From Gemmatimonadota bacterium (lineage in GTDB: Bacteria > Gemmatimonadota > Gemmatimonadetes > Longimicrobiales > Gaopeijiaceae), in contig JBDHHQ010000075.1 in the NCBI GenBank assembly GCA_039589315.1, positions 1-22,313 on the forward strand: a stretch of 22,313 nucleotides of DNA. Direction: 5' to 3'. Every line of letters starts with the position of its first letter. Position 1 is the first letter of the stretch. Shown here piece by piece: positions 3,755 through 22,313 of this stretch. Made by a program: the position numbers and the translations under genes. The notes beneath the pieces were generated by a model. That model was not told the DNA's origin, made no database searches, and saw nothing but the letters and a program-made list of their open reading frames with translations.

Positions 3755-3934
3755 AGCTAGCGGACCCTGCGATTCTGCTGCGCCACCTAGCTGCTCACCG
3801 CGCAGCGACGTGAACACCGCAGGTGTGAACGGAGCCAGCGATCAAGGCTCATCGCTCCAAGGAGCGCCGGCAACGAGGAGACTCCTGAGCCGATTCCCGT
3901 CCGCCGCGTCTGCAGCAGCAAACGCGTGTGAGAG
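3755..3934 (-). repeat. attC site, long family copy 1 (both R boxes degenerate)
   Basis: + strand reads agctagc-ggaccctgcgattctgctgcg...cgcgtctgcagcagcaaacgcgt-gtgagag. The ~130-bp centre is shared with the copies at 5507, 8906, 17934 and 22056. Confidence 0.82.
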
Positions 3935-3952
3935 CGCATCTCTGGCGGAGAC

Positions 3953-4742: not shown

Positions 4743-4790
4743 CTCTAACGGATTGCGATTCTGCTACGCCGCCGGCCCGCACACAAGCGC
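4743..4790 (-). repeat. attC half-site (R'/L' arm only)
   Basis: ctctaac-ggattgcgattctgcta matches the R'/L' arm of the other sites. The continuation ggcccgcacacaagcg resembles the flanks at 12269 and 20632. No matching L''/R'' arm was found. Confidence 0.7.
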
Positions 4791-5506: not shown

Positions 5507-5798
5507 TTTTAACGACTCTGCGATTCTGCTGCGTGACCGACCCGTCCACCGTGCGGCGACGTGAACACCGTAGGTGTGAACGGTGCAGGCGATCAAGAAC
5601 TCTTGCGGCTTGGCGGAACCGAGGCTGTCGGCGCCTATCCGTCGCAGGCAGGCATTACTCCCTCGGTTCGTACACGATGACCTGGCCCGTCAGCCTCTTA
5701 CGGTCAGATCGAATCATGGCGACTCCGAGGAGCACCGCGACGAGGAGCCTCCTGAGCCGATTCCCGGTCACCGTGTCAGCAGCCGCCGCCCGTTGGGT
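5507..5798 (-). repeat. attC site, long family copy 2, interrupted by ~125 bp of foreign sequence
   Basis: ttttaac-gactctgcgattctgctgcg...gatcaag [5598-5722 insert] ctccgaggagcaccgcgacgaggagcctcctgagccgattcc...cagcag...gttgggt. Confidence 0.8.
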
Positions 5799-7879: not shown

Positions 7880-7907
7880 GGAGTCCTTCCGGTCACTCCG
7901 CTAGGCC

Positions 7908-8011
7908 GCCCAACGGATTTGGGATTCTGCTGCGAGACCATGACAGCTTACCCCACCAGCGTAGCTTGCGGCCACCCAGCCTACCGCGACAGCAGCGATT
8001 CCCTGTTAGAG
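7908..8011 (-). repeat. attC site, canonical 104 bp
   Basis: Minus strand reads CTCTAAC-AGGGA-ATCGCTGC...GCAGCAGAAT-CCCAAATCC-GTTGGGC. Both R boxes are intact and L'' carries an extra base. Confidence 0.9.
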
Positions 8012-8880
8012 TGCGAACCGTCCAACTCGATGAGGTAGAGACGATAATGGTCGCCCTCGGTCCGCCTGCCCGCGTAGACGATGGACCGACCATCCGGGGA
8101 CCAGGCGGGTTCGGTGACCCTGTGGAGCCCTCCGGCCAAGCGCCGCTCTTGGATGCCGTCGGAACGCATGACGTGAAGAGCCCGCGAACCGTCGTCCTCG
8201 ACTCCTACGAACACGATTCGCTCTCCATCCGGCGCCCAAGCCGGGCAGAAGTCATGCCCCGGCCCGAACGTCAACCGCCTGAGCACGCGCGTCTCGAGCG
8301 AGAGCGCGTAGATCTCGTCATCCTGACCTGAGGTGTCGCGCCGCGAGAAGAACGCGAGGGTCTCCCCGTCAGGGCTCCACCTCGGCCAAACGTCCCGGCC
8401 CGGCGGGATGGGGGCGTCCCGGACGAGCCCTGTCTCGAGGTCCAGGATCTGCAGCCTGAGGTCAGGCGACTCTCCTACCGAGAATGCGATCTCCGTTCCG
8501 CTCGGGGACCAGTGAGGGAAGGTCTCCGAGCCCGTGAGCTCGACTCTTCGAGTGTCGCCGCTGTTGAGGTCCGAGATGTGGAGATCGGAGCCGGACCCTG
8601 TCGTTCGGACGAATGCGATCCTGGATCCATCCGGGGACCAGGTAGGGGATCGCTCATCCTCGGGGGATGACGTGACCGCGGCGATCGATCCGGACTCAGT
8701 ATCCAGGAGCAGGATGTCCCAGTTCCCGGATCGGGTCGATTCAAACGCGATCTTCGATCCGCCGGGGCTCCACGAGGGAGCGCGGCTCGTGAAGGCAGGC
8801 GGCGTTAGTGGACGCGACTCCCCCTCTTGCATGGCCAGCCCGCCGAGAAGCCCCAGAATCACAAGTGCATTCATCCGCAT
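7981..8880 (-). CDS. TolB-like PD40/WD40-repeat beta-propeller protein, secreted
   Basis: Six PxWSPDG-type repeats and an N-terminal signal peptide. The 3' end runs into the attC. Confidence 0.9.
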   Translation of the reverse strand: MRMNALVILGLLGGLAMQEGESRPLTPPAFTSRAPSWSPGGSKIAFESTRSGNWDILLLDTESGSIAAVTSSPEDERSPTWSPDGSRIAFVRTTGSGSDLHISDLNSGDTRRVELTGSETFPHWSPSGTEIAFSVGESPDLRLQILDLETGLVRDAPIPPGRDVWPRWSPDGETLAFFSRRDTSGQDDEIYALSLETRVLRRLTFGPGHDFCPAWAPDGERIVFVGVEDDGSRALHVMRSDGIQERRLAGGLHRVTEPAWSPDGRSIVYAGRRTEGDHYRLYLIELDGSHSNRESLLSR

Positions 8881-8905
8881 CCTCGGCCGCCTAGTCCATC
8901 TCGCA

Positions 8906-9077
8906 CTCTAACGGATCACAGTTCTGCCGCGCGACCGGCCCGTCCACCAGCGCAGCGACGTGAACACCGTAGCTGTGAACGGAGCGAGCGATCAAGGCTC
9001 GTCGCTCCGAGGAGCACCGCGACGAGGAGCCTCCTGAGCCGTCCCCCCACCGCGTCTGCAGCAATCGCTTGCCAGAC
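8906..9077 (-). repeat. attC site, long family copy 3 (R'' degenerate)
   Basis: ctctaac-ggatcacagttctgccgcgcgacc...cgcgtctgcagcaatcgctt-gccagac, with the shared centre. Confidence 0.85.
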
Positions 9078-9310
9078 CGTGTCTCCCCCGCCTACCGGGT
9101 AACTCTCTCCGGGTAGCTGTGCGGCACGTGCTCGGCGCCGTCACACCTCCTGGCCGGGCCCGAAGTTCTTGTCGATAGGGCTAGCTTTTTCACCTCGCGA
9201 CGGTGGCGCGGGCAGTGGCCAAGCTGGACTGCGGTCGTAGCGCTGTCCTTCAGCGTCATCTACGTTACCTGTAGAAGACGTGCGTGCCCTTGACCGTCGA
9301 GACGAGGAGA

Positions 9311-11241: not shown

Positions 11242-11387
11242 GGTTTTCAGGTGCTCCTGGACAGGGACTCCCTCGACAGCTTCTTGGAGTTCCGCTGCGC
11301 CCCGGACAGCGAAGACGCTCCCAAGCGTTGAGCGCATCGTGATCTCTGGCGTTCAGCTCGAGCTGCAGGCGGATTGTTCCACCCACT

Positions 11388-11412
11388 GTCTGACGGCTTT
11401 GAAACTCTGCTG
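11388..11412 (-). repeat. attC R'/L' arm, left flank of the IS insertion
   Basis: gtctgac-ggctttgaaactctgctg resembles (c)ctaac-ggacttgcgattctgctg. Confidence 0.65.
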
Positions 11413-11500
11413 ACCTTATGAAGCGGATGGCCTCCCAATGGCCGACGCGCGACGGTGTCTCCTCTCCAGACCTGCGGCTGTCCACCAACAGGAGGCCATC

Positions 11501-11967
11501 ATGCACGTCGCAGGAATAGACGCTCACGCAACGTACCTCGTCGTCGCGATCGTGAGCAACGACGGAACCCTCGTCCAAAGGCCGCTCCCGTGACTCTGCT
11601 CCGCACCGTGCCCGGCATTGGCTCCTTCCGTGGGCTCCTTCTCGCCACCGAGATCCTGCAGATCGCACGGTTCAGGACCCCCGCCAATCTGGTCAGTTAC
11701 GCCGGCCTTGCGCCTCGCGCGTCTCGTTCCGGCATGACGGCCCGGTACGGACCCATCCCCGCCGGGGCCAACCGTTGGCTCAGGAACGCGTTCGTCCAGA
11801 CCGTCGTCATCCATCGACGCCGAGCACCCGAGAGTTGGCTGTACCGCTACTACGATGAGATGAAGGCGCGCCTCGATTGGGGGGTCGCTCGCATCGCCAC
11901 GGCTCGCAAGCTGGCCCGGGCCGTTCACGCCATGCTTCGCACCGGCGAGGTCTGGCGTCATGCTTGA
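11501..11967 (+). pseudogene. IS110-family transposase with large internal deletion and frameshift
   Basis: GGAGG-ATG start MHVAGIDAHATYLVVAIV (RuvC-like DEDD N-terminus, stop 11591-93) is joined out of frame to the Transposase_20 C-terminus LLRTVPGIG...SYAGLAP..SRSG...ATARKLARAVHAML. Confidence 0.92.
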
Positions 11968-11980
11968 ATTCAGGATCCAC

Positions 11981-12099
11981 GGGGTGAGCTCCCGGTCGCG
12001 CATGTCGCTCCGACGACCTCTCTTCTGCTGACTGAGCCCCCCACCTCGCATAGGAGATCATGGGACGTCCCAATCGCTCTAGGGGCGAAACCCGAGGTG
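11981..12099 (+). ncRNA. Predicted bridge/seek RNA core (target-binding and donor-binding loops)
   Basis: Loop 1: outer stem GCTC/GAGC, inner hairpin GTCG/CGAC, loop strands GGTCGCGCA and TTCTGCTG matching attC. Loop 2: outer stem CACCTCG/CGAGGTG, inner hairpin TGGGA/TCCCA, strands partly matching the IS ends. Folded by eye. Confidence 0.7.
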
Positions 12100-12263
12100 C
12101 TCGAGTCGGGGATCCGGCTCGCCTGAGATCGGTCGCGTGATCCGATACGCTTCATTACGCCACAGGTGGCCTGGGGAATGACACGCACTATCAAGACCCG
12201 CTCTGGCCGGCTCACGCAGGCCCCGGGAGAGCTGCGTCCTCTTGACGGGGTCCGCTTTATAGG

Positions 12264-12297
12264 TGCGTGGCCCGTCAGGACACAAGCTAAGCGTATC
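12264..12297 (-). repeat. attC continuation, right flank of the IS (R'' arm missing)
   Basis: tgcgtggcccgtcaggacacaagctaagcgtatc is similar to 20620-20656 and to the 4743 half-site. Confidence 0.55.
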
Positions 12298-12359
12298 AAC
12301 CCTCGTCCAGCCCCTGTTCGGGGCTGACTACGGCCAACGCGATAGTCACGCCCACGGGC

Positions 12360-13865
12360 TCAATCGCACTCTCCCGGACCCGCCAAACTTCGGAGGGTCC
12401 CGAGGTCGTCATCCACGGCGTCCCGCGCTCGGCTCTCGGACCAGTTGAAGCTCCTCCAGTCCGCAGGTCGCTCAGGGCCCCACAGGCGTAGGAGCCCGCT
12501 CGCCACCAAGCACTGTGCCTCATCCGACAGCTCGCTGAGGCGGGCGACCAAGAGCGGGGCTGCGTCACTCCCGAGCGAGGCGAGGTACTCCACGTCCACC
12601 CCACCCAACTCCGCGATTCGGTCGAGATTGTGACGGGCGACCAAACCGGCAGGATTGATGAGCTGCAGCGCACCGACCAGGACGAACGCCGTGACGAGGC
12701 CGCCAAACGCGAAGCGGTCGCGACGGCCGCTCAACACAGTCGCCCCGAACCAGACCACGACTACCGTCAACCACACGAGTGCCGCGGTCACCACGACACG
12801 CAGCTCCGTGAGGCCGTAGGCGGTCTGGTAGACCAGCATGCGTTGGATCGCGGAGGCCACGATGATCAAGAGGAGAAGGAGGTGGACGCCCGCGAATCCG
12901 GCGAATACCGAACGTGCCTTCAGACTGCGGTCACCGAGCAGGACGTGGGTGGCGAGGAGCCAGGGGATGGCCAGCGCCACCGCGGCGACGAGCTGGAAGA
13001 AGCCGGCACGGGCGTAGGCAGCGTACGTGAGAGCCGGAGTGACCTCGACCCAGGAGCCTCCTCCGAACAGGTAGCGGAATTGGACGATCACGAAGCCCAG
13101 AAACAGGAGATCCACCAGGCCTAGGGCGGTGGCCACCTCGGCGATCCCAAGAGTCGGGCGGGCCGGCTGGAGGCGTCGAATCCCCTCCAACCTCGTGCCC
13201 GACGAAACGCCGACGAGATAGCCGCAGGCGAGCCAGGAGAGGACGGCTATGACCACCAGGTGTGAGGCGAAGGCCTGCAAGTCGATCCTTACGAAGTCTC
13301 CGACAATCGTGGCGAACACCTCGTCAGCCGAAATGAAGAGCGCTCCGAAAACCACCAGCGGGACGAGTGCGAGGAGCACCCCGCCCAAGGCAGTTCGCAC
13401 CACGGTGCGTGCAGTCCCTCGAGATGTGTCCGTTCCCAGCTCACCCCAGTGCTCGCGGTCGATCAGTCGAGCGCTTCCGAACGCCGAGTGAAGCCCGGCT
13501 CCGGCTACGGCCTCGACAACGTCCAGGGTCCCGGACCGCCTGATCCAGGCGCGCCCCGCGTCGAGAGCCGGCAGCGCAAACGCTGTGCACGCCGCCAGGA
13601 GAATTCCGAACCGAAGAAGGTCCGAGCCCCGCCACAGCAGGGCGGCACCACAAAGCAGCCCGACTCCGATCCATATCGACGCCTCCCGGCTGAGGGGCGA
13701 TTCACCGCTCCGAGCTACTAGCCAGACGGAGGCGGAGAGTCCCACGAACAACAGGAAGAAGTTGAGGCCGGGACCCGCGGACGCCCGAAGAAGCTGGTCT
13801 CCGGCGAAACCCATGCCGATGCTAGCCGCGAGGATGGCGGTCACAGGCAAAGCGCGGTCGTTCAT
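12360..13865 (-). CDS. DUF4153 (DUF4173) multi-pass membrane protein
   Basis: [49 protein letters not shown] and YLASLGSDA motifs; ATGA overlap with uppS. Confidence 0.88.
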
Positions 13866-14695
13866 GGTGTGGCCCTCCGTTCGCAGAGCGACGATTCCGT
13901 AGCTCGGCCTGGTCCTCGAGAGAGTCCTCCGTATCGCCGATCACGAGCGGCAAAAGCCTGAACGGCAGAAGCGAGATCGGCCTCGCGGAAGTCCGGCCAC
14001 AGGAGGTCGGTGAAGAACAGCTCGGCATAGGCCGCCTCCCAAAGCAAGAAGTCACTCAACCGCTGTTCTCCGCCGGTGCGGATGAGCAAGTCCACGTCGC
14101 GCGTACCCCGCGGTGCGTGGATGGCCTGAGACAAGTGTCGCTCGAAGGCCTGGCGGGTCGGGCGTACCCCTTCTGCGAGACGGCCGGCCGCCGCCAACAG
14201 CGCATCGCGGGCCGAATAGTCGATCGCGACCCGGAGGTGGAGAGAGGTCCCTTCGCTCGTTCTCTCTTCGACCTGCGCGATCCTGCGTCTGAGAGAGCCC
14301 GGAATCCGGTCCCGACGCCCTATGACGCTCAGGCGCACACCACTGTCCGTCAGGCGGGCGCACTCGGAGTCCAGGTGTTTCTGGAACAGGCGCATCAGGT
14401 GACTCACTTCGCCCCGCGGCCGGCGCCAATTGTCCGAGGAGAAAGCGTAGAGCGTAAGCGTGGTGATGCCCAACTCCGGTGCGGACCCCACCGTTCGTCG
14501 GACCGCCGTAGCTCCGGCGACGTGGCCCGCAGCCCGGGGTCGACCTCGTTCGTGAGCCCAGCGGCCGTTCCCATCCATGATGATCGCGACATGGAATCGG
14601 TCCCGGCCTGCGCCCATCCGCTCGGAGGTTCCCGGCAAGGCTGGTTTCGGTTGTTCAGGCTCTCCCCATCGCGAATCCAAAGTACTTCGTATCAT
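13862..14695 (-). CDS. uppS: cis-prenyltransferase / undecaprenyl diphosphate synthase paralogue
   Basis: [43 protein letters not shown] and AYAELFF..WPDF motifs; GGAGG RBS. Confidence 0.95.
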
Positions 14696-14700
14696 AAAGT
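14684..14700. promoter_or_regulatory. Palindromic operator 2 (ACTTYG-N5-YAAAGK) overlapping the uppS start codon
   Basis: aagtACTTCGtatcaTAAAGT is closely similar to aagtACTTTGtgctgCAAAGG at 15749-15769; both are AT-rich islands in GC-rich DNA. Confidence 0.65.
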
Positions 14701-14724
14701 GCCTCCCGAAAAAAAAACCGACGC

Positions 14725-15111
14725 CTATTCTCGTACGCGCTCGATCAAGGCTTCCATGTGGTCCAGATATCGCTGGAGCGCCTGTCGTCCGGTCTCTGTG
14801 AGGCGATAGTCCGTCCGCGGAATCCGACCCTCGAAGGACTTGCGTATCTCGACGTAGCCAGCCTCCTCCAGCCGCCTGGCATGAACGCTGAGGTTCCCGT
14901 CCGAAGTGTCGAGACGCTCCTTGAGCTCGTTGAAGGTGAGAGATTCCTCCACCGCGAGTGCGCTTACGATCCCAAGGCGGACGCGCACATGGATGATCGG
15001 GTCGAGTGCGACAGGATTGGTCTTCGCGGTTTGTACGTCGATGCTCACGGTCGATCCCTTGACCGGGGTCAGGTTCGGGGCCTTGCGGCGGGCCCGCGCA
15101 CCCTCAGCCAC
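14725..15111 (-). CDS. Winged-helix transcriptional regulator (HTH_34, MarR/ArsR-like)
   Basis: [17 protein letters not shown]...[28 protein letters not shown]...[12 protein letters not shown]. Start re-called to GTG 15111 after GGAGG, overlapping the upstream stop. Confidence 0.9.
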
Positions 15112-15715
15112 CGTGCCTCCTCGCAATAGTCGTCCCGAAGAGGATGTGCAGCCCCCCGAATCCCACGGCCATCAAGAGATCACCGGCGGCAGGCATCGCG
15201 AGAAGCGCAAACACTCCGAGGACCATGAAACAGATCCCCATCACGGGGACGATCTTGACCGAAAAGGTGCCGGCCGTTACGACGGCGGCGCCGTAGAGGA
15301 GAAGCCATACCCCCGGAAGAAGTGACTCAGCTCCGCCCTGCCAAAGCGCTACCGTCAGTACCGCTCCAGCGAGAGCAGGCGGCAGGAAACTCAGTAGGAA
15401 CTTGCGACCCGCTCCGGAAAAGACGGGAAGACCCGCTCGGCGCGCCTTCCGGTGGATTGCAACCGCCCCGATCGCCACGGCGAGCAACGCCTCGAGGGTC
15501 CAGACTAGAAGCCAGCCGTCAGCGGTCGGCTGGCCTGAAGCGAGCGCCGCGGCAGCCAGTGCGGTGAGTCCCATTCCGACGCCACCCCATCCCGGAACCG
15601 CCGTGAAGGCGGCGCCCCGCTCCATCGTCCGACGGATGAAGCGCAAATCCTCCATGGCTCGGTCGCCCAAGGCGATGGGCTCCGAGCTCTGATGGACTTG
15701 AGAGAGTCTCAGCAT
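15104..15715 (-). CDS. Conserved multi-pass membrane protein, first gene of the wHTH-uppS-DUF4153 operon
   Basis: AMEDLRFIRRTME, about six TM helices, PGVWLLLYG, GFGGLHILFG..IARRHGG. Start re-called to ATG 15715. Confidence 0.85.
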   Translation of the reverse strand: MLRLSQVHQSSEPIALGDRAMEDLRFIRRTMERGAAFTAVPGWGGVGMGLTALAAAALASGQPTADGWLLVWTLEALLAVAIGAVAIHRKARRAGLPVFSGAGRKFLLSFLPPALAGAVLTVALWQGGAESLLPGVWLLLYGAAVVTAGTFSVKIVPVMGICFMVLGVFALLAMPAAGDLLMAVGFGGLHILFGTTIARRHGG

Positions 15716-15769
15716 GATACAAATGTCGGCCGAAGCATTGGGGCCGTCAAGTACTTTGTGCTGCAAAGG
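15716..15769 (-). promoter_or_regulatory. Putative sigma70 promoter with adjacent palindromic operator 1
   Basis: -35 TTGACG (15750-15745), 17-bp spacer, weak -10 GACATT (15727-15722), ATG 6 nt later. Palindrome ACTTTG-N5-CAAAGG at 15753-15769. Confidence 0.6.
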
Positions 15770-15939
15770 ACAGCAAGCCCCTCGTTCCGCTCCGCCAAGA
15801 CGGAGCCCTCCGAGTCCGAGACCTTCCGACCAGACCCTGGTCCGAGGCGTGGGCCCGCCTGCTCTCATCAACCAACGGCTTCGCCGTCACCCTCACGCCC
15901 CTGCCAGCTCGCCGGCATGTTGGGCCGTGACCGGCACTA

Positions 15940-16200
15940 TTACCAGACTGAACACGACCCTCGACCGTCGTCGAAACGTCCTGTAGCGCGCCATCTGCTC
16001 GGGACGAGTAGACCGTTCACGCCAAGCCAGCCGCCATTTGCCGGAAGATCGCCGGGTTTACCGTGACCACGGCCTGCGGCAGTTGACGGGCCCGGAAGAA
16101 ACCGAGCCAGGACGGCGGCCACTTCGGCCGCGTCGATCTCGCCCAGACTCCAGGCCGCATCGATCCCGTCGGCGTCAAAGAACGATCGATAAACGGCCAT
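15940..16200 (-). pseudogene. Possible gene remnant, unknown function
   Basis: The first half (AVYRSFFDADGIDAAWSLGEIDAAEVAAVLARFL) looks protein-like and abuts an attC half-site; no family recognised. Confidence 0.3.
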
Positions 16201-16204
16201 CCAC

Positions 16205-16281
16205 TCGGGACTACCGCGCCACAGCGAGAGCTCGTCGCAAAGAGTCTCGCCAAAACGGACAGCAGCGATTCCTTATTAGAC
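16205..16281 (-). repeat. attC half-site (centre plus L''/R'' arm)
   Basis: gacagcagcgattccttattagac is nearly identical to gacagcagcgattccctgttagag (7988-8011). Internal hairpin gcgagagctc/gagtctcgc. The R' arm is absent. Confidence 0.7.
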
Positions 16282-16317
16282 AGTGCCCCCGTCAGACAAC
16301 ACAAGTCCTCAGTCGTC

Positions 16318-16575
16318 TCATGGCGATCCGCCGAGTCGCCCCATCGTGGCCAGATCTACTCGGATCTGCAGCGGAACGGCATCGTCCGAGAATAGTTCGC
16401 CACGGAAGGCGCCGATGTGGACGTGGGGGTTACGGGAGTCGCCGTTGTTCCCGATCCTCGCGACCGGTTGGCCGGCCTGCACGCCGTCCCCTTCGCTCAC
16501 CACGACCTCGCGCACGTGAACGTACGCCACCTGAACCGCATCGCGATCCTCCTCGAGGCCGCACCTGAAGAGCAT
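16318..16575 (-). pseudogene. M23 family metallopeptidase, C-terminal fragment
   Basis: AYVHVREVVVSEGDGVQAGQPVARIGNNGDSRNPHVH (HxH motif); the N-terminal HxxxD part is missing. Confidence 0.8.
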
Positions 16576-16750
16576 TGCGCTGAGCGCCCCGAGCCAAACT
16601 CACCCGGGATCGTAGACTCTGGGCTAAGGCTCAGGATGAGTACCACCCTCCCATGGGGCAAGCAGAGGCTCCCTGAGAGCTCAACGGGATCTGCCGTAGG
16701 GCGCCCTAACGGCCCAACGTGCACACGAAGTCGCAGATCGCTTTCGCCGA

Positions 16751-17140
16751 TCAGAGCGTAGTGTAGGTCAGCTTCTCGGCAATCTTGCCGTCACGTACCG
16801 TGAAGATGTCCACGCCGCGCGCGGAGCCTTGGCTCCCGTCCGGCTGCGGCCACTTCATCGTCCAACGGCAAGCGCTCCGGTCTCCCGCGGCGAAGATGTC
16901 GTCTACGTCGATTGTGTAGCCCGGGAAATGTGTATCCAGCGACTCCCAGACCGCTCGCACTGCCTCCTGTCCCTCGTGGCGGCCGAAGCTGACGGCCTCA
17001 GGAGCGACATGCTCAAAGACGCAGTCCTCGGTCATGTCGGCCATCATGCCATCGATATCGCGCGTGTTGAATCCACCCTCGAAGCGGGTGATCAAAGCGA
17101 GAGTCGCTTCCGTGATCGTGGTGGTTGCGGTGTCGGTCAT
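16751..17140 (-). CDS. SnoaL-like / NTF2-fold protein
   Basis: FNTRDIDGMMADMTEDCVF, GQEAVRAVW, AGDRSACRW and RGVDIFTVRDGKIAEK motifs; GGAG RBS. Confidence 0.92.
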   Translation of the reverse strand: MTDTATTTITEATLALITRFEGGFNTRDIDGMMADMTEDCVFEHVAPEAVSFGRHEGQEAVRAVWESLDTHFPGYTIDVDDIFAAGDRSACRWTMKWPQPDGSQGSARGVDIFTVRDGKIAEKLTYTTL

Positions 17141-17373
17141 GAGCTGTCACTCCGGCGTGAGGGTGGTCGAGGCGCCATGTTACCTCATGGGGATCGCTGA
17201 GACAACAGCCCTTTTGGCGGCAGGAAGCCGCCTAACGCCTGACAGTGCGAACGACCTGCCGTGGCCGACTTCACGATCTCCCCGTGCCGGAGACCTCCAA
17301 TGGTAGGTTCTCGCGACGTAGACCTGATCGGCAGCATCGGTGGTAGAAGGTCCAAGTGCACAGGAAGGTAGTA

Positions 17374-17859
17374 ATGAAGAAGTGGCTGAGACGCATCCGG
17401 GGTGCAATCGGGATGGGCCTGACCTGGGCAGTCGCATGGTTCGGCGCGGGTCTCATGCTCCTGCTGGTAGTCGGTCTTGACGCCGCCGCCGTCCCGCTTC
17501 CCCTCGGTTTTGGGTTCTTCGGCTTTCTTGCTGGCGCCACGTTCTCGGGGGTGCCCGGGATTGTCGAGGGCCGTCGCAGGTTCGATCAGATGTCGCTTCC
17601 GCGCTTTGCCGCGTGGGGGGCCGTTGGGGTTCTCTTGCTGTCCGCGATCTTCGTCGGGGCCGCGGCCCTTGCAGGGGAGACACTGGAGATTGTGGTGTTG
17701 GGCCCCGTGTTCGCACTGGCGGGTGCGGGCTCCGCTGCTGGTTCGCTGGCACTGGCCAGAATGGCGTAGGAGCGAGAATCGCTCGACGCCAGTGCGGACG
17801 TGGCCGAGGTGGGGCTTACCAGCGGTGAGGCGCAGGAGCTGCTTGGAGGCAGGGGCTGA
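17374..17859 (+). pseudogene. Four-TM membrane protein with an apparent premature TAG at 17767-17769
   Basis: MKKWLRRIRGAIGMGLTWA...ALARMA* continues in frame as ERESLDASADVAEVGLTSGEAQELLGGRG*. Confidence 0.65.
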
Positions 17860-17933
17860 CCTCTCCAGGTGGATCCAGTCCGCAGCCTCGGAGAACGTTG
17901 CTCGGCCAGTTGTGTGCGGGTGGCCCGGGCAAT

Positions 17934-18110
17934 GCCCAACGGACTTGCGACCCTGCTGCGCGACCTAGCCGCCCACGGCGCGGCGACGTGAACACCGTAG
18001 GTGTGACCGGAGCAAGCGATCAAGGCTCATCGCTCCGAGGAGCACCGTGCCGAGGAGCCTTCTGAGCCGTTCCCGTCCACCGCGTCTGCAGCAATCCGCT
18101 TGTGTTGGAG
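17934..18110 (-). repeat. attC site, long family copy 4
   Basis: gcccaac-ggacttgcgaccctgctgcgcgacc...cgcgtctgcagcaatccgcttgt-gttggag; lies 20 bp after the TonB receptor stop. Confidence 0.85.
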
Positions 18111-18130
18111 CGCAGCTTGTCCTGCGAGCC

Positions 18131-22055: not shown

Positions 22056-22230
22056 TCCTAACGGACTTGTGATTCTACGGCGCGACCTACCTGCTGACGC
22101 GCGCAGCGACGTGAACACCCTCGGTGTGAACGGAGCAAGCGATCAAGGCTCATCGCTCCGTGGGAGCGCGGCGACGAGGAGCCTCCGAGCCGTTCCCGCC
22201 CACCGCGTCTGCAGCAATCGCTTGATACTC
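22056..22230 (-). repeat. attC site, long family copy 5 (R'' degenerate)
   Basis: tcctaac-ggacttgtgattctacggcgcgacc...cgcgtctgcagcaatcgctt-gatactc, with the shared centre. Confidence 0.85.
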
Positions 22231-22313
22231 ATGCAGGCCCCCTCCTGGACCTCTCAGCGAGAGGAAGGAAAGATCAGAGCGCCACTGCTCGATTCATCCA
22301 ACCCAGGAGGGGA

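What the first reader, a model, noticed from the sequence alone, without database searches (positions are those of the whole stretch)
11981..12045. Bridge/seek-RNA target loop apparently programmed against this array's attC consensus
Seen: just after the transposase stop is an internal loop (outer stem GCTC/GAGC, inner hairpin GTCG-ctc-CGAC). One strand is GGTCGCGCA (11994-12002, reverse complement of TGCGCGACC) and the other is TTCTGCTG (12023-12030). Overlapped on TG, they spell TTCTGC-TG-CGCGACC, the consensus of the attC L' region at 3773, 5524, 7925, 8922, 9902, 17951 and 22073. The IS itself sits at that TG, and the two right-arm mismatches of the occupied site (TGcgtggcc) are G-T/U-G wobble compatible. 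Known: IS110/IS1111 recombinases use a non-coding guide RNA with two target guides sharing a 2-nt core, and some IS1111 elements target attC. Inference: this is an RNA-guided attC-homing element with a TG core, matched to a lineage-specific attC family.
Basis: partly seen in the sequence, partly recalled or inferred. Interest (0 to 1): 0.92.

Follow-up and report, generated by a model that had tools for sequence, protein, structure and literature searches.

The report
Guide RNA of a dead attC-homing IS
This is the guide-RNA gene of a broken RNA-guided jumping gene that sits in an integron recombination site of a Gemmatimonadota genome, and its two guide stretches spell that site: a clear new example of a mechanism published in 2024, not a new principle.

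Summary
At 11981-12042, just after the transposase stop, a conserved stem/hairpin scaffold carries two loop strands. GGTCGCGCA (11994-12002) and TTCTGCTG (12023-12030) overlap on TG and spell TTCTGC-TG-CGCGACC, the majority sequence of the attC arm repeated in this window.

The element is an IS1111-type IS (11413-12263) inserted at that TG. Its flanks are CTCTGC-TG and TG-CGTGGCC.

In about 30 relatives from the same bacterial order the scaffold is invariant, while the two loop strands change together with the flanks. Only 2 and 8 of 362,880 permutations reach the observed fit.

A second loop matches the IS's own right end, so it is a candidate donor loop.

This copy is a relic. About 557 bp of the transposase gene and 3 nt of the donor loop are missing, and the MAG holds no intact copy.

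seekRNA/bridge-RNA guidance, including for the attC-targeting ISKpn4, ISPst6 and ISPa25, was published in 2024. This is therefore a new member of a known kind, from a distant lineage (at most 37% protein identity to plasmid-borne relatives).

Sister lineages insert 3 nt apart in the same attC arm. The scan has already noted this kind of element on other DNA. RNA expression and activity are inferred, not shown.

The parts
11389..11412 (+). Left half of the occupied attC arm: R'-box complement TCTGAC, then GGCTTTGAAACTCTGC and the core TG (11411-11412)
   Evidence: Aligns without gaps to the eight unoccupied arms; abuts the conserved IS left end.
11413..12263 (+). IS1111-type insertion sequence, defective copy (851 bp; intact relatives are 1397-1461 bp)
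   Evidence: Ends fixed by the conserved termini ACCTTATRAAGC... and ...GCYTTATAGR in relatives. Aligned to the intact IS of L005: 1-176 = 1-179 and 184-851 = 737-1414.
11417..11427 (+). Left sub-terminal inverted repeat TATGAAGCGGA
   Evidence: 10 of 11 complementary to 12251-12261; 11 of 11 in L005.
11501..11587 (+). Transposase remnant, first 29 codons (MHVAGIDAHATY...)
   Evidence: tblastn with the intact relative P0002: residues 1-29, 86% identity; translation.
11588..11596 (+). Deletion junction: about 557 bp (codons ~30-213, most of the RuvC-like domain and the coiled coil) missing, with a frame change
11590..11967 (+). Transposase remnant, C-terminal domain (PF02371) with the GLAPRASRSG motif and the stop codon
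   Evidence: Pfam PF02371 at 59.9 bits; NF033542 at 89 bits, below its cut-off; 81% identity to P0002 residues 214-337.
11981..12042 (+). Target-binding module of the seekRNA/bridge RNA gene: stems GGGG/CCCC and GCTC/GAGC, inner hairpin GTCG/CGAC
   Evidence: RNAalifold consensus on 21 and 22 sequences; stems invariant, loop strands hypervariable.
11992..12002 (+). 5' loop strand (guide 1) CCGGTCGCGCA, complementary to the top strand of core plus right flank
   Evidence: 5 of 7 identical to its own right flank, 7 of 7 with G:T/U:G wobble; 7 of 7 to the attC consensus.
12019..12030 (+). 3' loop strand (guide 2) TCTCTTCTGCTG, same sense as left flank plus core
   Evidence: 5 of 6 to its own left flank, 6 of 6 to the consensus.
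12045..12105 (+). Second module, candidate donor-binding loop: CTCG...CGAG stem, inner hairpin, 3' strand ...GAGGTGC that matches the IS right end plus core; 3 nt (AAT) missing relative to relatives
   Evidence: The variable base before TG equals the last base of the right end in 17 of 18 relatives.
12251..12261 (+). Right sub-terminal inverted repeat TCCGCTTTATA; the IS ends at 12263
12264..12360 (+). Right part of the occupied attC: core TG, then CGTGGCCCGTC..., running to the stop of the upstream cassette ORF (12360-13865, minus strand)
3773..3787 (+). Unoccupied target motif in an attC arm; others at 4759, 5524, 7925, 8922, 9902, 17951 and 22073

Best explanation
The stretch 11981-12105 is the guide-RNA (seekRNA / bridge RNA) gene in the 3' non-coding region of an IS1111-type insertion sequence (11413-12263). 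The IS inserted at a TG in the L' arm of an integron attC site, about 19 nt from the R' box. In the first internal loop, the 5' strand pairs with the top DNA strand of core plus right flank. The 3' strand pairs with the bottom strand of left flank plus core. This is the order reported for IS1111 seekRNAs. A second loop carries a strand matching the IS's own right end plus core, which would recognise the donor junction. The transposase, guided by this RNA, would exchange strands at the shared TG and leave one TG on each side. This copy can no longer move by itself. About 557 bp of the transposase gene are deleted, 3 nt of the donor loop are lost, and the assembly shows no intact copy. Shown here: the sequence anatomy, the conserved scaffold, and guide-flank covariation among relatives. 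Inferred: that the RNA is made, that it is bound by the transposase, and that it directs insertion.
For: Strings and structure are at the stated coordinates. Chance is excluded (3 of 200,000).

Relatives were found in 23 of 200 other genomes of the family. At order level, 40 of 401 genomes including the window's own had a match. Across 21-22 distinct sequences the scaffold GGGGTGAGCTC-[guide 1]-CATGTCG..GACGACC-[guide 2]-CTGACTGAGCCCCCC is invariant, while the guides vary.

Guide versus own flank:
- Right, 7 nt: 10 of 21 elements match 7/7, 3 match 6/7, 5 match 5/7, and 3 match 4 or fewer.
- Left, 6 nt: 3 of 20 match 6/6, 12 match 5/6, 4 match 4/6, and 1 matches 1/6.

Permuting nine guide classes against the flank sets, 2 (right) and 8 (left) of 362,880 permutations reach the observed fit. 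The cognate set is best in 7 of 9 and 6 of 9 classes. Two further classes, L036 and L052, fit as well. Where guide 1 ends in CG instead of CA (L008, L062, L073), the right flank starts with CG instead of TG.

The order of the two matches, top-strand match 5' of bottom-strand match, is as in PMC11187229 section 9.

IS1111 features: 11-bp sub-terminal inverted repeats, a long 3' non-coding region, and a GL-P----SG motif, with transposases of 338-345 aa in relatives.

Integron context: IntI (TIGR02249) scores 342.6 bits against a cut-off of 265 on contig C97. Arm copies lie on about 10 contigs. In 3 of 4 relatives with intI, one IS copy lies 10-17 kb from it.

Donor loop: the variable base before TG equals the last base of the right end in 17 of 18 relatives. 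The inner hairpin has 6-7 compensatory pairs.
Against: There are no expression data: no RNA run is available. No Rfam family matches. No promoter or terminator consensus was found.

The stems of the target loop never vary, so covariation neither supports nor contradicts them. The single-sequence fold is no more stable than shuffles (z = +1.05).

The guide fits the consensus (15/15) better than the site it occupies (12/15).

Three relatives fit poorly on the right flank (L012 3/7, L029 2/7, L030 4/7). L012 also fails on the left (1/6).

The 5' strand of the second loop (AGATCA/AGATCT) matches core plus left end at only 5 of 6 positions and does not covary cleanly. L006 breaks the right-end rule.

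The relatives are kin, so the permutation figures overstate independence.

The attC identity rests on boxes, arrangement and a genomic IntI. Two sites folded as DNA are no more stable than shuffles, and no attC model was available.
Confidence: 0.86

Rival explanations
1. The element in this window is a live, autonomous RNA-guided homing element that is still spreading through the array.
For: The target loop is intact and identical in scaffold to that of the intact relative L005. About 20 attC-context sites within 2 mismatches of the predicted target exist in the genome.
Against: About 557 bp of the transposase gene are missing with a frame change. Three nt of the candidate donor loop are lost. 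The element is single-copy in the assembly, and tblastn finds no intact transposase of this clade. The MAG is 95% complete, and repeats are often left unassembled, so an intact helper copy cannot be excluded.
Confidence: 0.04
2. The repeats are not integron attC sites but another family of palindromic intergenic repeats (REP/MITE-like). The IS targets those, as ISPa11 targets REPs.
For: Five copies share an unusually long conserved unit of about 165-190 nt. Some 'cassettes' are large and multi-gene: 12360-17930 holds DUF4153, a UppS-like gene and more. Folding as DNA is no better than shuffles. IntI is on another contig.
Against: All copies share one orientation. They start with an RYYYAAC-like box and, where readable, end with a GTTRRRY-like box: GCCCAAC...GTTAGAG at 7906-8030 and CCCAAC...GTTGGAG at 17934-18110. 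They sit at the 3' ends of ORFs on the minus strand. The genome has an IntI above the curated cut-off. In three relatives an IS copy of this clade lies 10-17 kb from intI.
Confidence: 0.08
3. The matches are a scar: a fragment of attC DNA captured into the IS tail by recombination, with no guide function.
For: Recombination with the tail does occur. In L007 the last 248 bp are duplicated, starting exactly at the guide-2 core.
Against: The two halves are separated by an invariant hairpin and lie in opposite senses. They sit at the same scaffold positions in all relatives and change in step with the flanks through at least nine classes. A captured fragment would be contiguous and in one sense.
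Confidence: 0.02

Closest known systems
seekRNAs of the attC-targeting IS1111 members ISKpn4, ISPst6 and ISPa25 (Siddiquee et al. 2024, PMC11187229; abstract, sections 6, 9 and 13, passages and supplement listing read)
   Same: The RNA is encoded downstream of the transposase gene. [quoted passage not shown] The target is one end of an attC. The IS has sub-terminal inverted repeats.
   Different: The host phylum is different (Gemmatimonadota). The transposase N-terminus (MYVAGIDAHATY...) looks unlike those of ISKpn4 and ISPa25 as printed in the paper's source data, judged by eye only. The best plasmid-borne relatives are at most 37% identical. Whether the insertion point within attC is the same could not be compared, because the published target is shown only in figures. 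No experiment was done here.
IS621 / IS110 bridge RNA (Durrant et al. 2024, PMC11208160, passages on IS1111 read; IS621 transposase structure 8wt6)
   Same: Two internal loops, one matching the target and one matching the donor. Each has one strand per DNA side and a shared core dinucleotide. That paper predicts a bridge RNA in the right end of 93% of IS1111 elements.
   Different: The RNA lies at the 3' end rather than the 5' end, and the guide order is reversed. The core is TG, not CT. The protein is related only in the C-terminal domain (E = 2.5e-7 to IS621 and 9.7e-9 to ISCro4). The donor loop here is supported on one strand only.
IS1111-attC group (Tetu & Holmes 2008; Post & Hall 2009). 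Seen only as references in PMC11187229; PMC2447020 is not held; content recalled
   Same: Orientation-specific insertion into attC sites of chromosomal integron arrays. Degenerate relics in arrays were described there, as recalled.
   Different: That group is defined in Pseudomonas and clinical class 1 integrons. Phylogenetic membership of the present clade was not tested.

Membership tests
IS1111 family (ISfinder IS110 family, IS1111 group) | DEDD/RuvC-like N-terminal domain plus PF02371 C-terminal domain; transposase of about 330-350 aa | tested here: met
   The intact relative P0002 (339 aa) scores 195 bits against NF033542 (cut-off 140) over residues 3-333. Relatives are 338-345 aa. The window copy keeps only 29 N-terminal codons plus the PF02371 part.
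IS1111 family (ISfinder IS110 family, IS1111 group) | Sub-terminal inverted repeats of about 11-13 bp | tested here: met
   TATAAAGCGGA / TCCGCTTTATA is 11 of 11 in L005 and 10 of 11 in the window (11417-11427 and 12251-12261).
IS1111 family (ISfinder IS110 family, IS1111 group) | The longer non-coding region lies downstream of the transposase gene | tested here: met
   296 nt downstream (11968-12263) against 88 nt upstream (11413-11500). Relatives have the same layout.
IS1111 family (ISfinder IS110 family, IS1111 group) | GL-P----S(t)G motif in the C-terminal domain | tested here: met
   GLAPRASRSG in the window and GLAPRSSRSG in P0002.
IS1111 family (ISfinder IS110 family, IS1111 group) | Terminal extensions of 7 (or 6) bp on the left and 3 bp on the right beyond the inverted repeats | tested here: inconclusive
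   Outside the 11-bp repeat there are 4 nt (ACCT) on the left and 2 nt (GG) on the right, plus the shared TG. The count depends on which side TG is assigned to and on the repeat length chosen.
seekRNA / bridge RNA | Two loop segments complementary to opposite strands of the target, overlapping at the core; IS1111 order (top-strand match 5') | tested here: met
   the order is as in PMC11187229 section 9.
seekRNA / bridge RNA | Guides differ between relatives in step with their targets | tested here: met
seekRNA / bridge RNA | Donor-recognising segment(s) matching the IS ends | tested here: inconclusive
   The 3' strand matches right end plus core and tracks its last base in 17 of 18 relatives. 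The 5' strand is only 5 of 6 complementary to core plus left end and shows no clean covariation.
seekRNA / bridge RNA | The RNA is expressed, bound by the transposase and required for movement | not testable with these tools
   One search listed no usable RNA run. No experiment was possible.
IS1111-attC group (Tetu & Holmes 2008) | Site- and orientation-specific insertion into attC | tested here: met
   The window flanks join into an arm that aligns to eight unoccupied arms. By my reading, 13-14 of 20 left flanks of relatives show the AACG/GACG box 12-16 nt from the junction. Classes C and E do not.
IS1111-attC group (Tetu & Holmes 2008) | Transposase belongs to the ISPst6/ISKpn4/ISPa21 clade | not tested
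   The published sequences could not be handed to the tools. Indirect evidence only: all 2281 plasmid records matched are below 60% identity, and the best is about 37%.
Integron attC site | RYYYAAC ... GTTRRRY boxes, imperfect inverted arms, one orientation at cassette 3' ends, IntI in the genome | tested here: inconclusive
   The boxes and arrangement are present and IntI scores 342.6 bits on C97. Some boxes are degenerate, the DNA folds are not significant, and no attC model was run.

The most novel reading that the evidence does not exclude
This may be a separate, unnamed radiation of IS1111-type elements in Gemmatimonadota that acquired attC homing independently of the Pseudomonas/clinical IS1111-attC group. 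Its guide pairs have been naturally reprogrammed along one attC arm. Sister lineages use TG cores 3 nt apart (GATTC-TG-CTGCGCG versus TTCTGC-TG-CGCGACC), sometimes in the same genome (G085). Others track variant arms (TTAAGC-TG-CGCTGGC, TAACC-TG-CGGGAGC). That would be a record of co-evolution between an RNA-guided IS and chromosomal integron attC families.
Probability: 0.5. Interest if true: 0.5.

Novelty: new member of a known kind. Interest (0 to 1): 0.35.

Why it matters
It shows that RNA-guided, attC-seeking insertion sequences are not confined to Pseudomonas and clinical integrons. They also parasitise chromosomal integrons of an environmental phylum.

The family gives a natural series of at least nine guide pairs on one invariant scaffold. 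That set is usable for learning guide rules: an effective length of about 5-6 nt on the left and 7 nt on the right plus the core, with wobble tolerated. It could also serve for choosing orthologues for recombinase engineering.

For integron biology, each insertion splits an attC and should freeze the neighbouring cassettes.

For this window alone the result is ordinary: a decayed copy of a known kind of element.

Tried and rejected
- Rfam gave no family at gathering score. With the E-value threshold on 11900-12300 there was only a chance-level sRNA hit.
- The single-sequence RNA fold of 11965-12270 had z = +1.05 and was not informative.
- My first guess for the left junction (TTCCGCTG near 11290, IS start 11296) was rejected once intact relatives showed the conserved left end at 11413. 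The DNA query used the wrong start.
- The search for related loci in genome contigs returned only 5 loci, but it did give the taxon names.
- The promoter/terminator consensus scan of 11380-12300 found none. The conserved TTGAC 16 nt from the right end, paired with TATAAA in the left end, would give a 22-nt spacer across the circle junction. No junction promoter is claimed.
- DNA folds of two attC sites were no more stable than shuffles. The first attempt exceeded a length limit.
- Sequencing runs: no RNA holder was listed and the best share of words was 0.12, so no reads were laid.
- The Tetu & Holmes 2008 paper is not held.
- The 5' strand of the second loop as a left-end guide shows only partial complementarity and no clean covariation.
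- The phylogenetic relation to ISKpn4, ISPst6 and ISPa25 was not computed.

Full report
**Observation.**
- The transposase reading frame stops at 11965-11967.
- From 11981 the sequence reads GGGG-TGA-GCTC, then an 11-nt strand CCGGTCGCGCA (11992-12002).
- A hairpin GTCG-CTC-CGAC follows, then ACC, then a 12-nt strand TCTCTTCTGCTG (12019-12030), then ACT-GAGC-C-CCCC.
- The reverse complement of the first strand (TGCGCGACC...) and the second strand (...TTCTGCTG) overlap on TG. Together they give TTCTGCTGCGCGACC.
- That 15-mer has 10 matches with up to 3 mismatches in the window, against 1.31 expected; 0 of 100 shuffles reach 10.
- Eight of these matches lie on the plus strand, each 13-15 nt after an xTAAC/xCAAC box.
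- The 15-mer is the per-position majority of the seven named sites. None of them is an exact copy.
- Exact copies in the same context occur on three other contigs of the genome.
- Both loop strings turn up together in 3 of 200,000 simulated 296-nt sequences.

**What the element is.**
- The frame 11455-11967 carries only the C-terminal IS110-family domain (PF02371).
- A DNA search of 200 other genomes of the same family found relatives in 23. A search of 401 genomes of the order, including the window's own, found matches in 40: f1 29/256, f2 6/71, f3 4/73.
- Named records place these relatives in Gemmatimonadota (Longimicrobiales and Gemmatimonadales MAGs).
- Intact relatives are 1397-1461 bp long and encode transposases of 338-345 aa. 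The one from L005, P0002, scores 195 bits against NF033542, 'IS110 family RNA-guided transposase'.
- Their ends are conserved: ACCTTATAAAGCG... on the left and ...TTGAC-N11-GCTTTATAGG on the right, with an 11-bp sub-terminal inverted repeat.
- These ends fix the window's element at 11413-12263. The flanks are ...TCTGACGGCTTTGAAACTCTGC-TG on the left and TG-CGTGGCCCGTC... on the right.
- My first guess for the left junction, the look-alike TTCCGCTG near 11290, was wrong.
- Against the L005 element, window IS positions 1-176 align to 1-179 and positions 184-851 align to 737-1414. About 557 bp are therefore missing, roughly codons 30-213, which cover most of the RuvC-like domain and the coiled coil. 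The frame also changes.
- The element is single-copy in the assembly. tblastn with the intact transposase finds nothing else in the genome. The MAG is 95% complete and in 288 contigs, so an unassembled copy cannot be excluded.

**The target is an attC arm.**
- Joining the two flanks in a script gives a sequence that aligns without gaps to the first 43 nt or so of the eight unoccupied repeats. The TG of the junction falls on the second TG of TTCTGCTGCG.
- The neighbouring ORFs lie on the minus strand. The box on the plus strand (GCCCAAC at 7906-7912) is therefore the complement of an R' box (GTTGGGC).
- The far ends show GTTAGAG (about 8024-8030) and GTTGGAG (about 18104-18110).
- The genome encodes an integron integrase above the curated cut-off: TIGR02249 at 342.6 bits against 265, on contig C97.
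- Arm copies occur on about ten contigs.
- In three of the four relatives that have intI, one IS copy of this clade lies 10-17 kb from it (G067, G058, G198; in G198 the intI has stop codons). In G092 the copies are far from intI, and G128 had no match.
- Weak points: five repeats share an unusually long conserved unit of 165-190 nt, some boxes are degenerate, two sites folded as DNA are no more stable than shuffles, and no attC model could be run. I therefore keep a small rival in which the repeats are another kind of palindromic element.

**Test of the guide reading.**
- In 21-22 distinct sequences the scaffold around the two strands is invariant, while the strands themselves differ. The scaffold comprises the stems GGGG/CCCC and GCTC/GAGC, the hairpin GTCG/CGAC, and the CA and CTG next to the guides.
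- I read each element's guides with one regular expression and its flanks from the conserved IS ends.
- For the 7 nt beyond the core on the right:
  - 10 of 21 elements match their own guide 7/7.
  - 3 match 6/7 and 5 match 5/7; the window is among the 5/7 group and is 7/7 if G:T and U:G are allowed.
  - 3 match 4 or fewer (L012, L029, L030).
- For the 6 nt on the left: 3 of 20 match 6/6, 12 match 5/6, 4 match 4/6 and 1 matches 1/6 (L012).
- I grouped the elements into nine guide classes and enumerated all 362,880 reassignments of flank sets. Only 2 (right) and 8 (left) reach the observed agreement. The cognate set is the best column for 7 of 9 and 6 of 9 classes.
- The classes are related to each other, so these figures overstate independence.
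- Six loci that my expression had missed were read by hand. They add two further concordant classes, L036 and L052.
- In the three elements whose guide 1 ends in CG instead of CA (L008, L062, L073), the right flank begins with CG instead of TG.
- Left flanks of most relatives carry the same box-plus-arm context (for example CTAACGTCTCGCGATTCTG). The clade as a whole therefore sits in attC arms. Classes C and E may aim at something else.

**A second loop.**
- Downstream, at 12045-12105, the alignment shows a second module: a CTC/GAG stem, an inner hairpin with 6-7 pairs kept through changes on both sides, and a 3' strand GAATAG-x-TGC.
- ATAG-x-TG equals the last bases of the IS right end plus the core. 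The base x (G, A or C) equals the last base of the right end in 17 of 18 relatives; L006 is the exception.
- The three states follow clades, so they represent few independent changes.
- The 5' strand (AGATCA or AGATCT) is complementary to core plus left end at 5 of 6 positions and does not covary cleanly.
- I read this as the donor-binding part, supported on one strand only.
- The window's copy lacks 3 nt (AAT) of that strand.

**Comparison with what is known.**
- Siddiquee et al. 2024 (PMC11187229; abstract, sections 6, 9 and 13, and passages read) showed that IS1111 members encode a seekRNA downstream of the transposase gene.
- Its two segments are complementary to the two target strands, with the top-strand match 5' of the bottom-strand match. 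The RNA co-purifies with the transposase and is programmable.
- They included the attC-targeting ISKpn4 and ISPst6, and by prediction ISPa25.
- Durrant et al. 2024 (PMC11208160, IS1111 passages read) predicted bridge RNAs in the right end of 93% of IS1111 elements.
- The present element has the same architecture and the same kind of target, so the mechanism is not new.
- What differs is the lineage. All 2281 plasmid records matched by tblastn are below 60% identity, and the best is about 37%. PDB relatives match only in the C-terminal domain (ISCro4 E = 9.7e-9, IS621 E = 2.5e-7).
- The N-terminus looks unlike those of ISKpn4 and ISPa25 printed in the paper's source data (by eye only). A tree was not built, so independent origin is open.
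- Rfam has no matching family.
- The scan's earlier notes describe the same kind of element on other DNA, including another Gemmatimonadota genome. I did not check those notes.

**What is of some interest.**
- The family offers a natural reprogramming series on one scaffold.
- Class A (the window, L005, L028) is aimed at TTCTGC-TG-CGCGACC. Class B (L009, L014, L070, L071 and others) is aimed at GATTC-TG-CTGCGCG. That is the same arm motif cut 3 nt earlier.
- Genome G085 holds a class B element (L014) and a class A2 element (L075) in arms of one attC family.
- The window's guides are the same as those of L005, which comes from another genus. The match is therefore to an attC family shared across the bacterial family, not to this genome alone.

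**Verdict.** Expression and activity are inferred. Novelty: new member of a known kind. Interest: 0.35.

Noticed in passing
L007:2211-2458 (genome G058): The last 248 bp of an intact IS copy, from the TG core of guide 2 to the right end, are repeated in tandem at 100% identity. The joint is right end|TG. This looks like recombination between the IS end and the DNA that encodes guide 2, which mimics the left half of the target.
   Followed up: partly
G000 contig C240 (reverse strand, about 1-1230): A second, unrelated IS110-family element, cut by the contig end, has its 3' tail abutting an attC arm of the same family (...CATAGAACAACTTGCGATTCGGCTGCGCG). Two different IS110-type lineages therefore seem to sit at attC sites in this genome.
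   Followed up: partly
window 3757-3950, 5509-5700, 8905-9095, 17934-18125, 22057-22250: Five attC-like repeats share a conserved unit of 165-190 nt, including a conserved central part (…GACGTGAACACCGTAGGTGTGAACGG…GATCAAGGCTCATCGCTCC…). This is long for attC sites and might hold something more.
   Followed up: no
L008, L062, L073: In one sub-lineage guide 1 ends in CG and the right flank starts with CG, while guide 2 and the left flank keep TG. The L008 target is palindromic (ACGTTAC-TG / CG-CGGTAACGT) and lacks the attC box context.
   Followed up: no
window 12242-12247 and the same place in all relatives: A conserved TTGAC lies 16 nt before the right end. It could be the -35 of a circle-junction promoter, but the spacer to TATAAA in the left end would be 22 nt.
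   Followed up: partly
window 12360-17930: A 5.6-kb stretch between two attC-like repeats holds several genes, including DUF4153 and an undecaprenyl diphosphate synthase-like gene. This is much larger than a usual cassette.
   Followed up: no
L012 (genome G092): One of two identical IS copies has flanks that match neither its guides nor an attC arm (left 1/6, right 3/7). This suggests a later rearrangement between copies.
   Followed up: no
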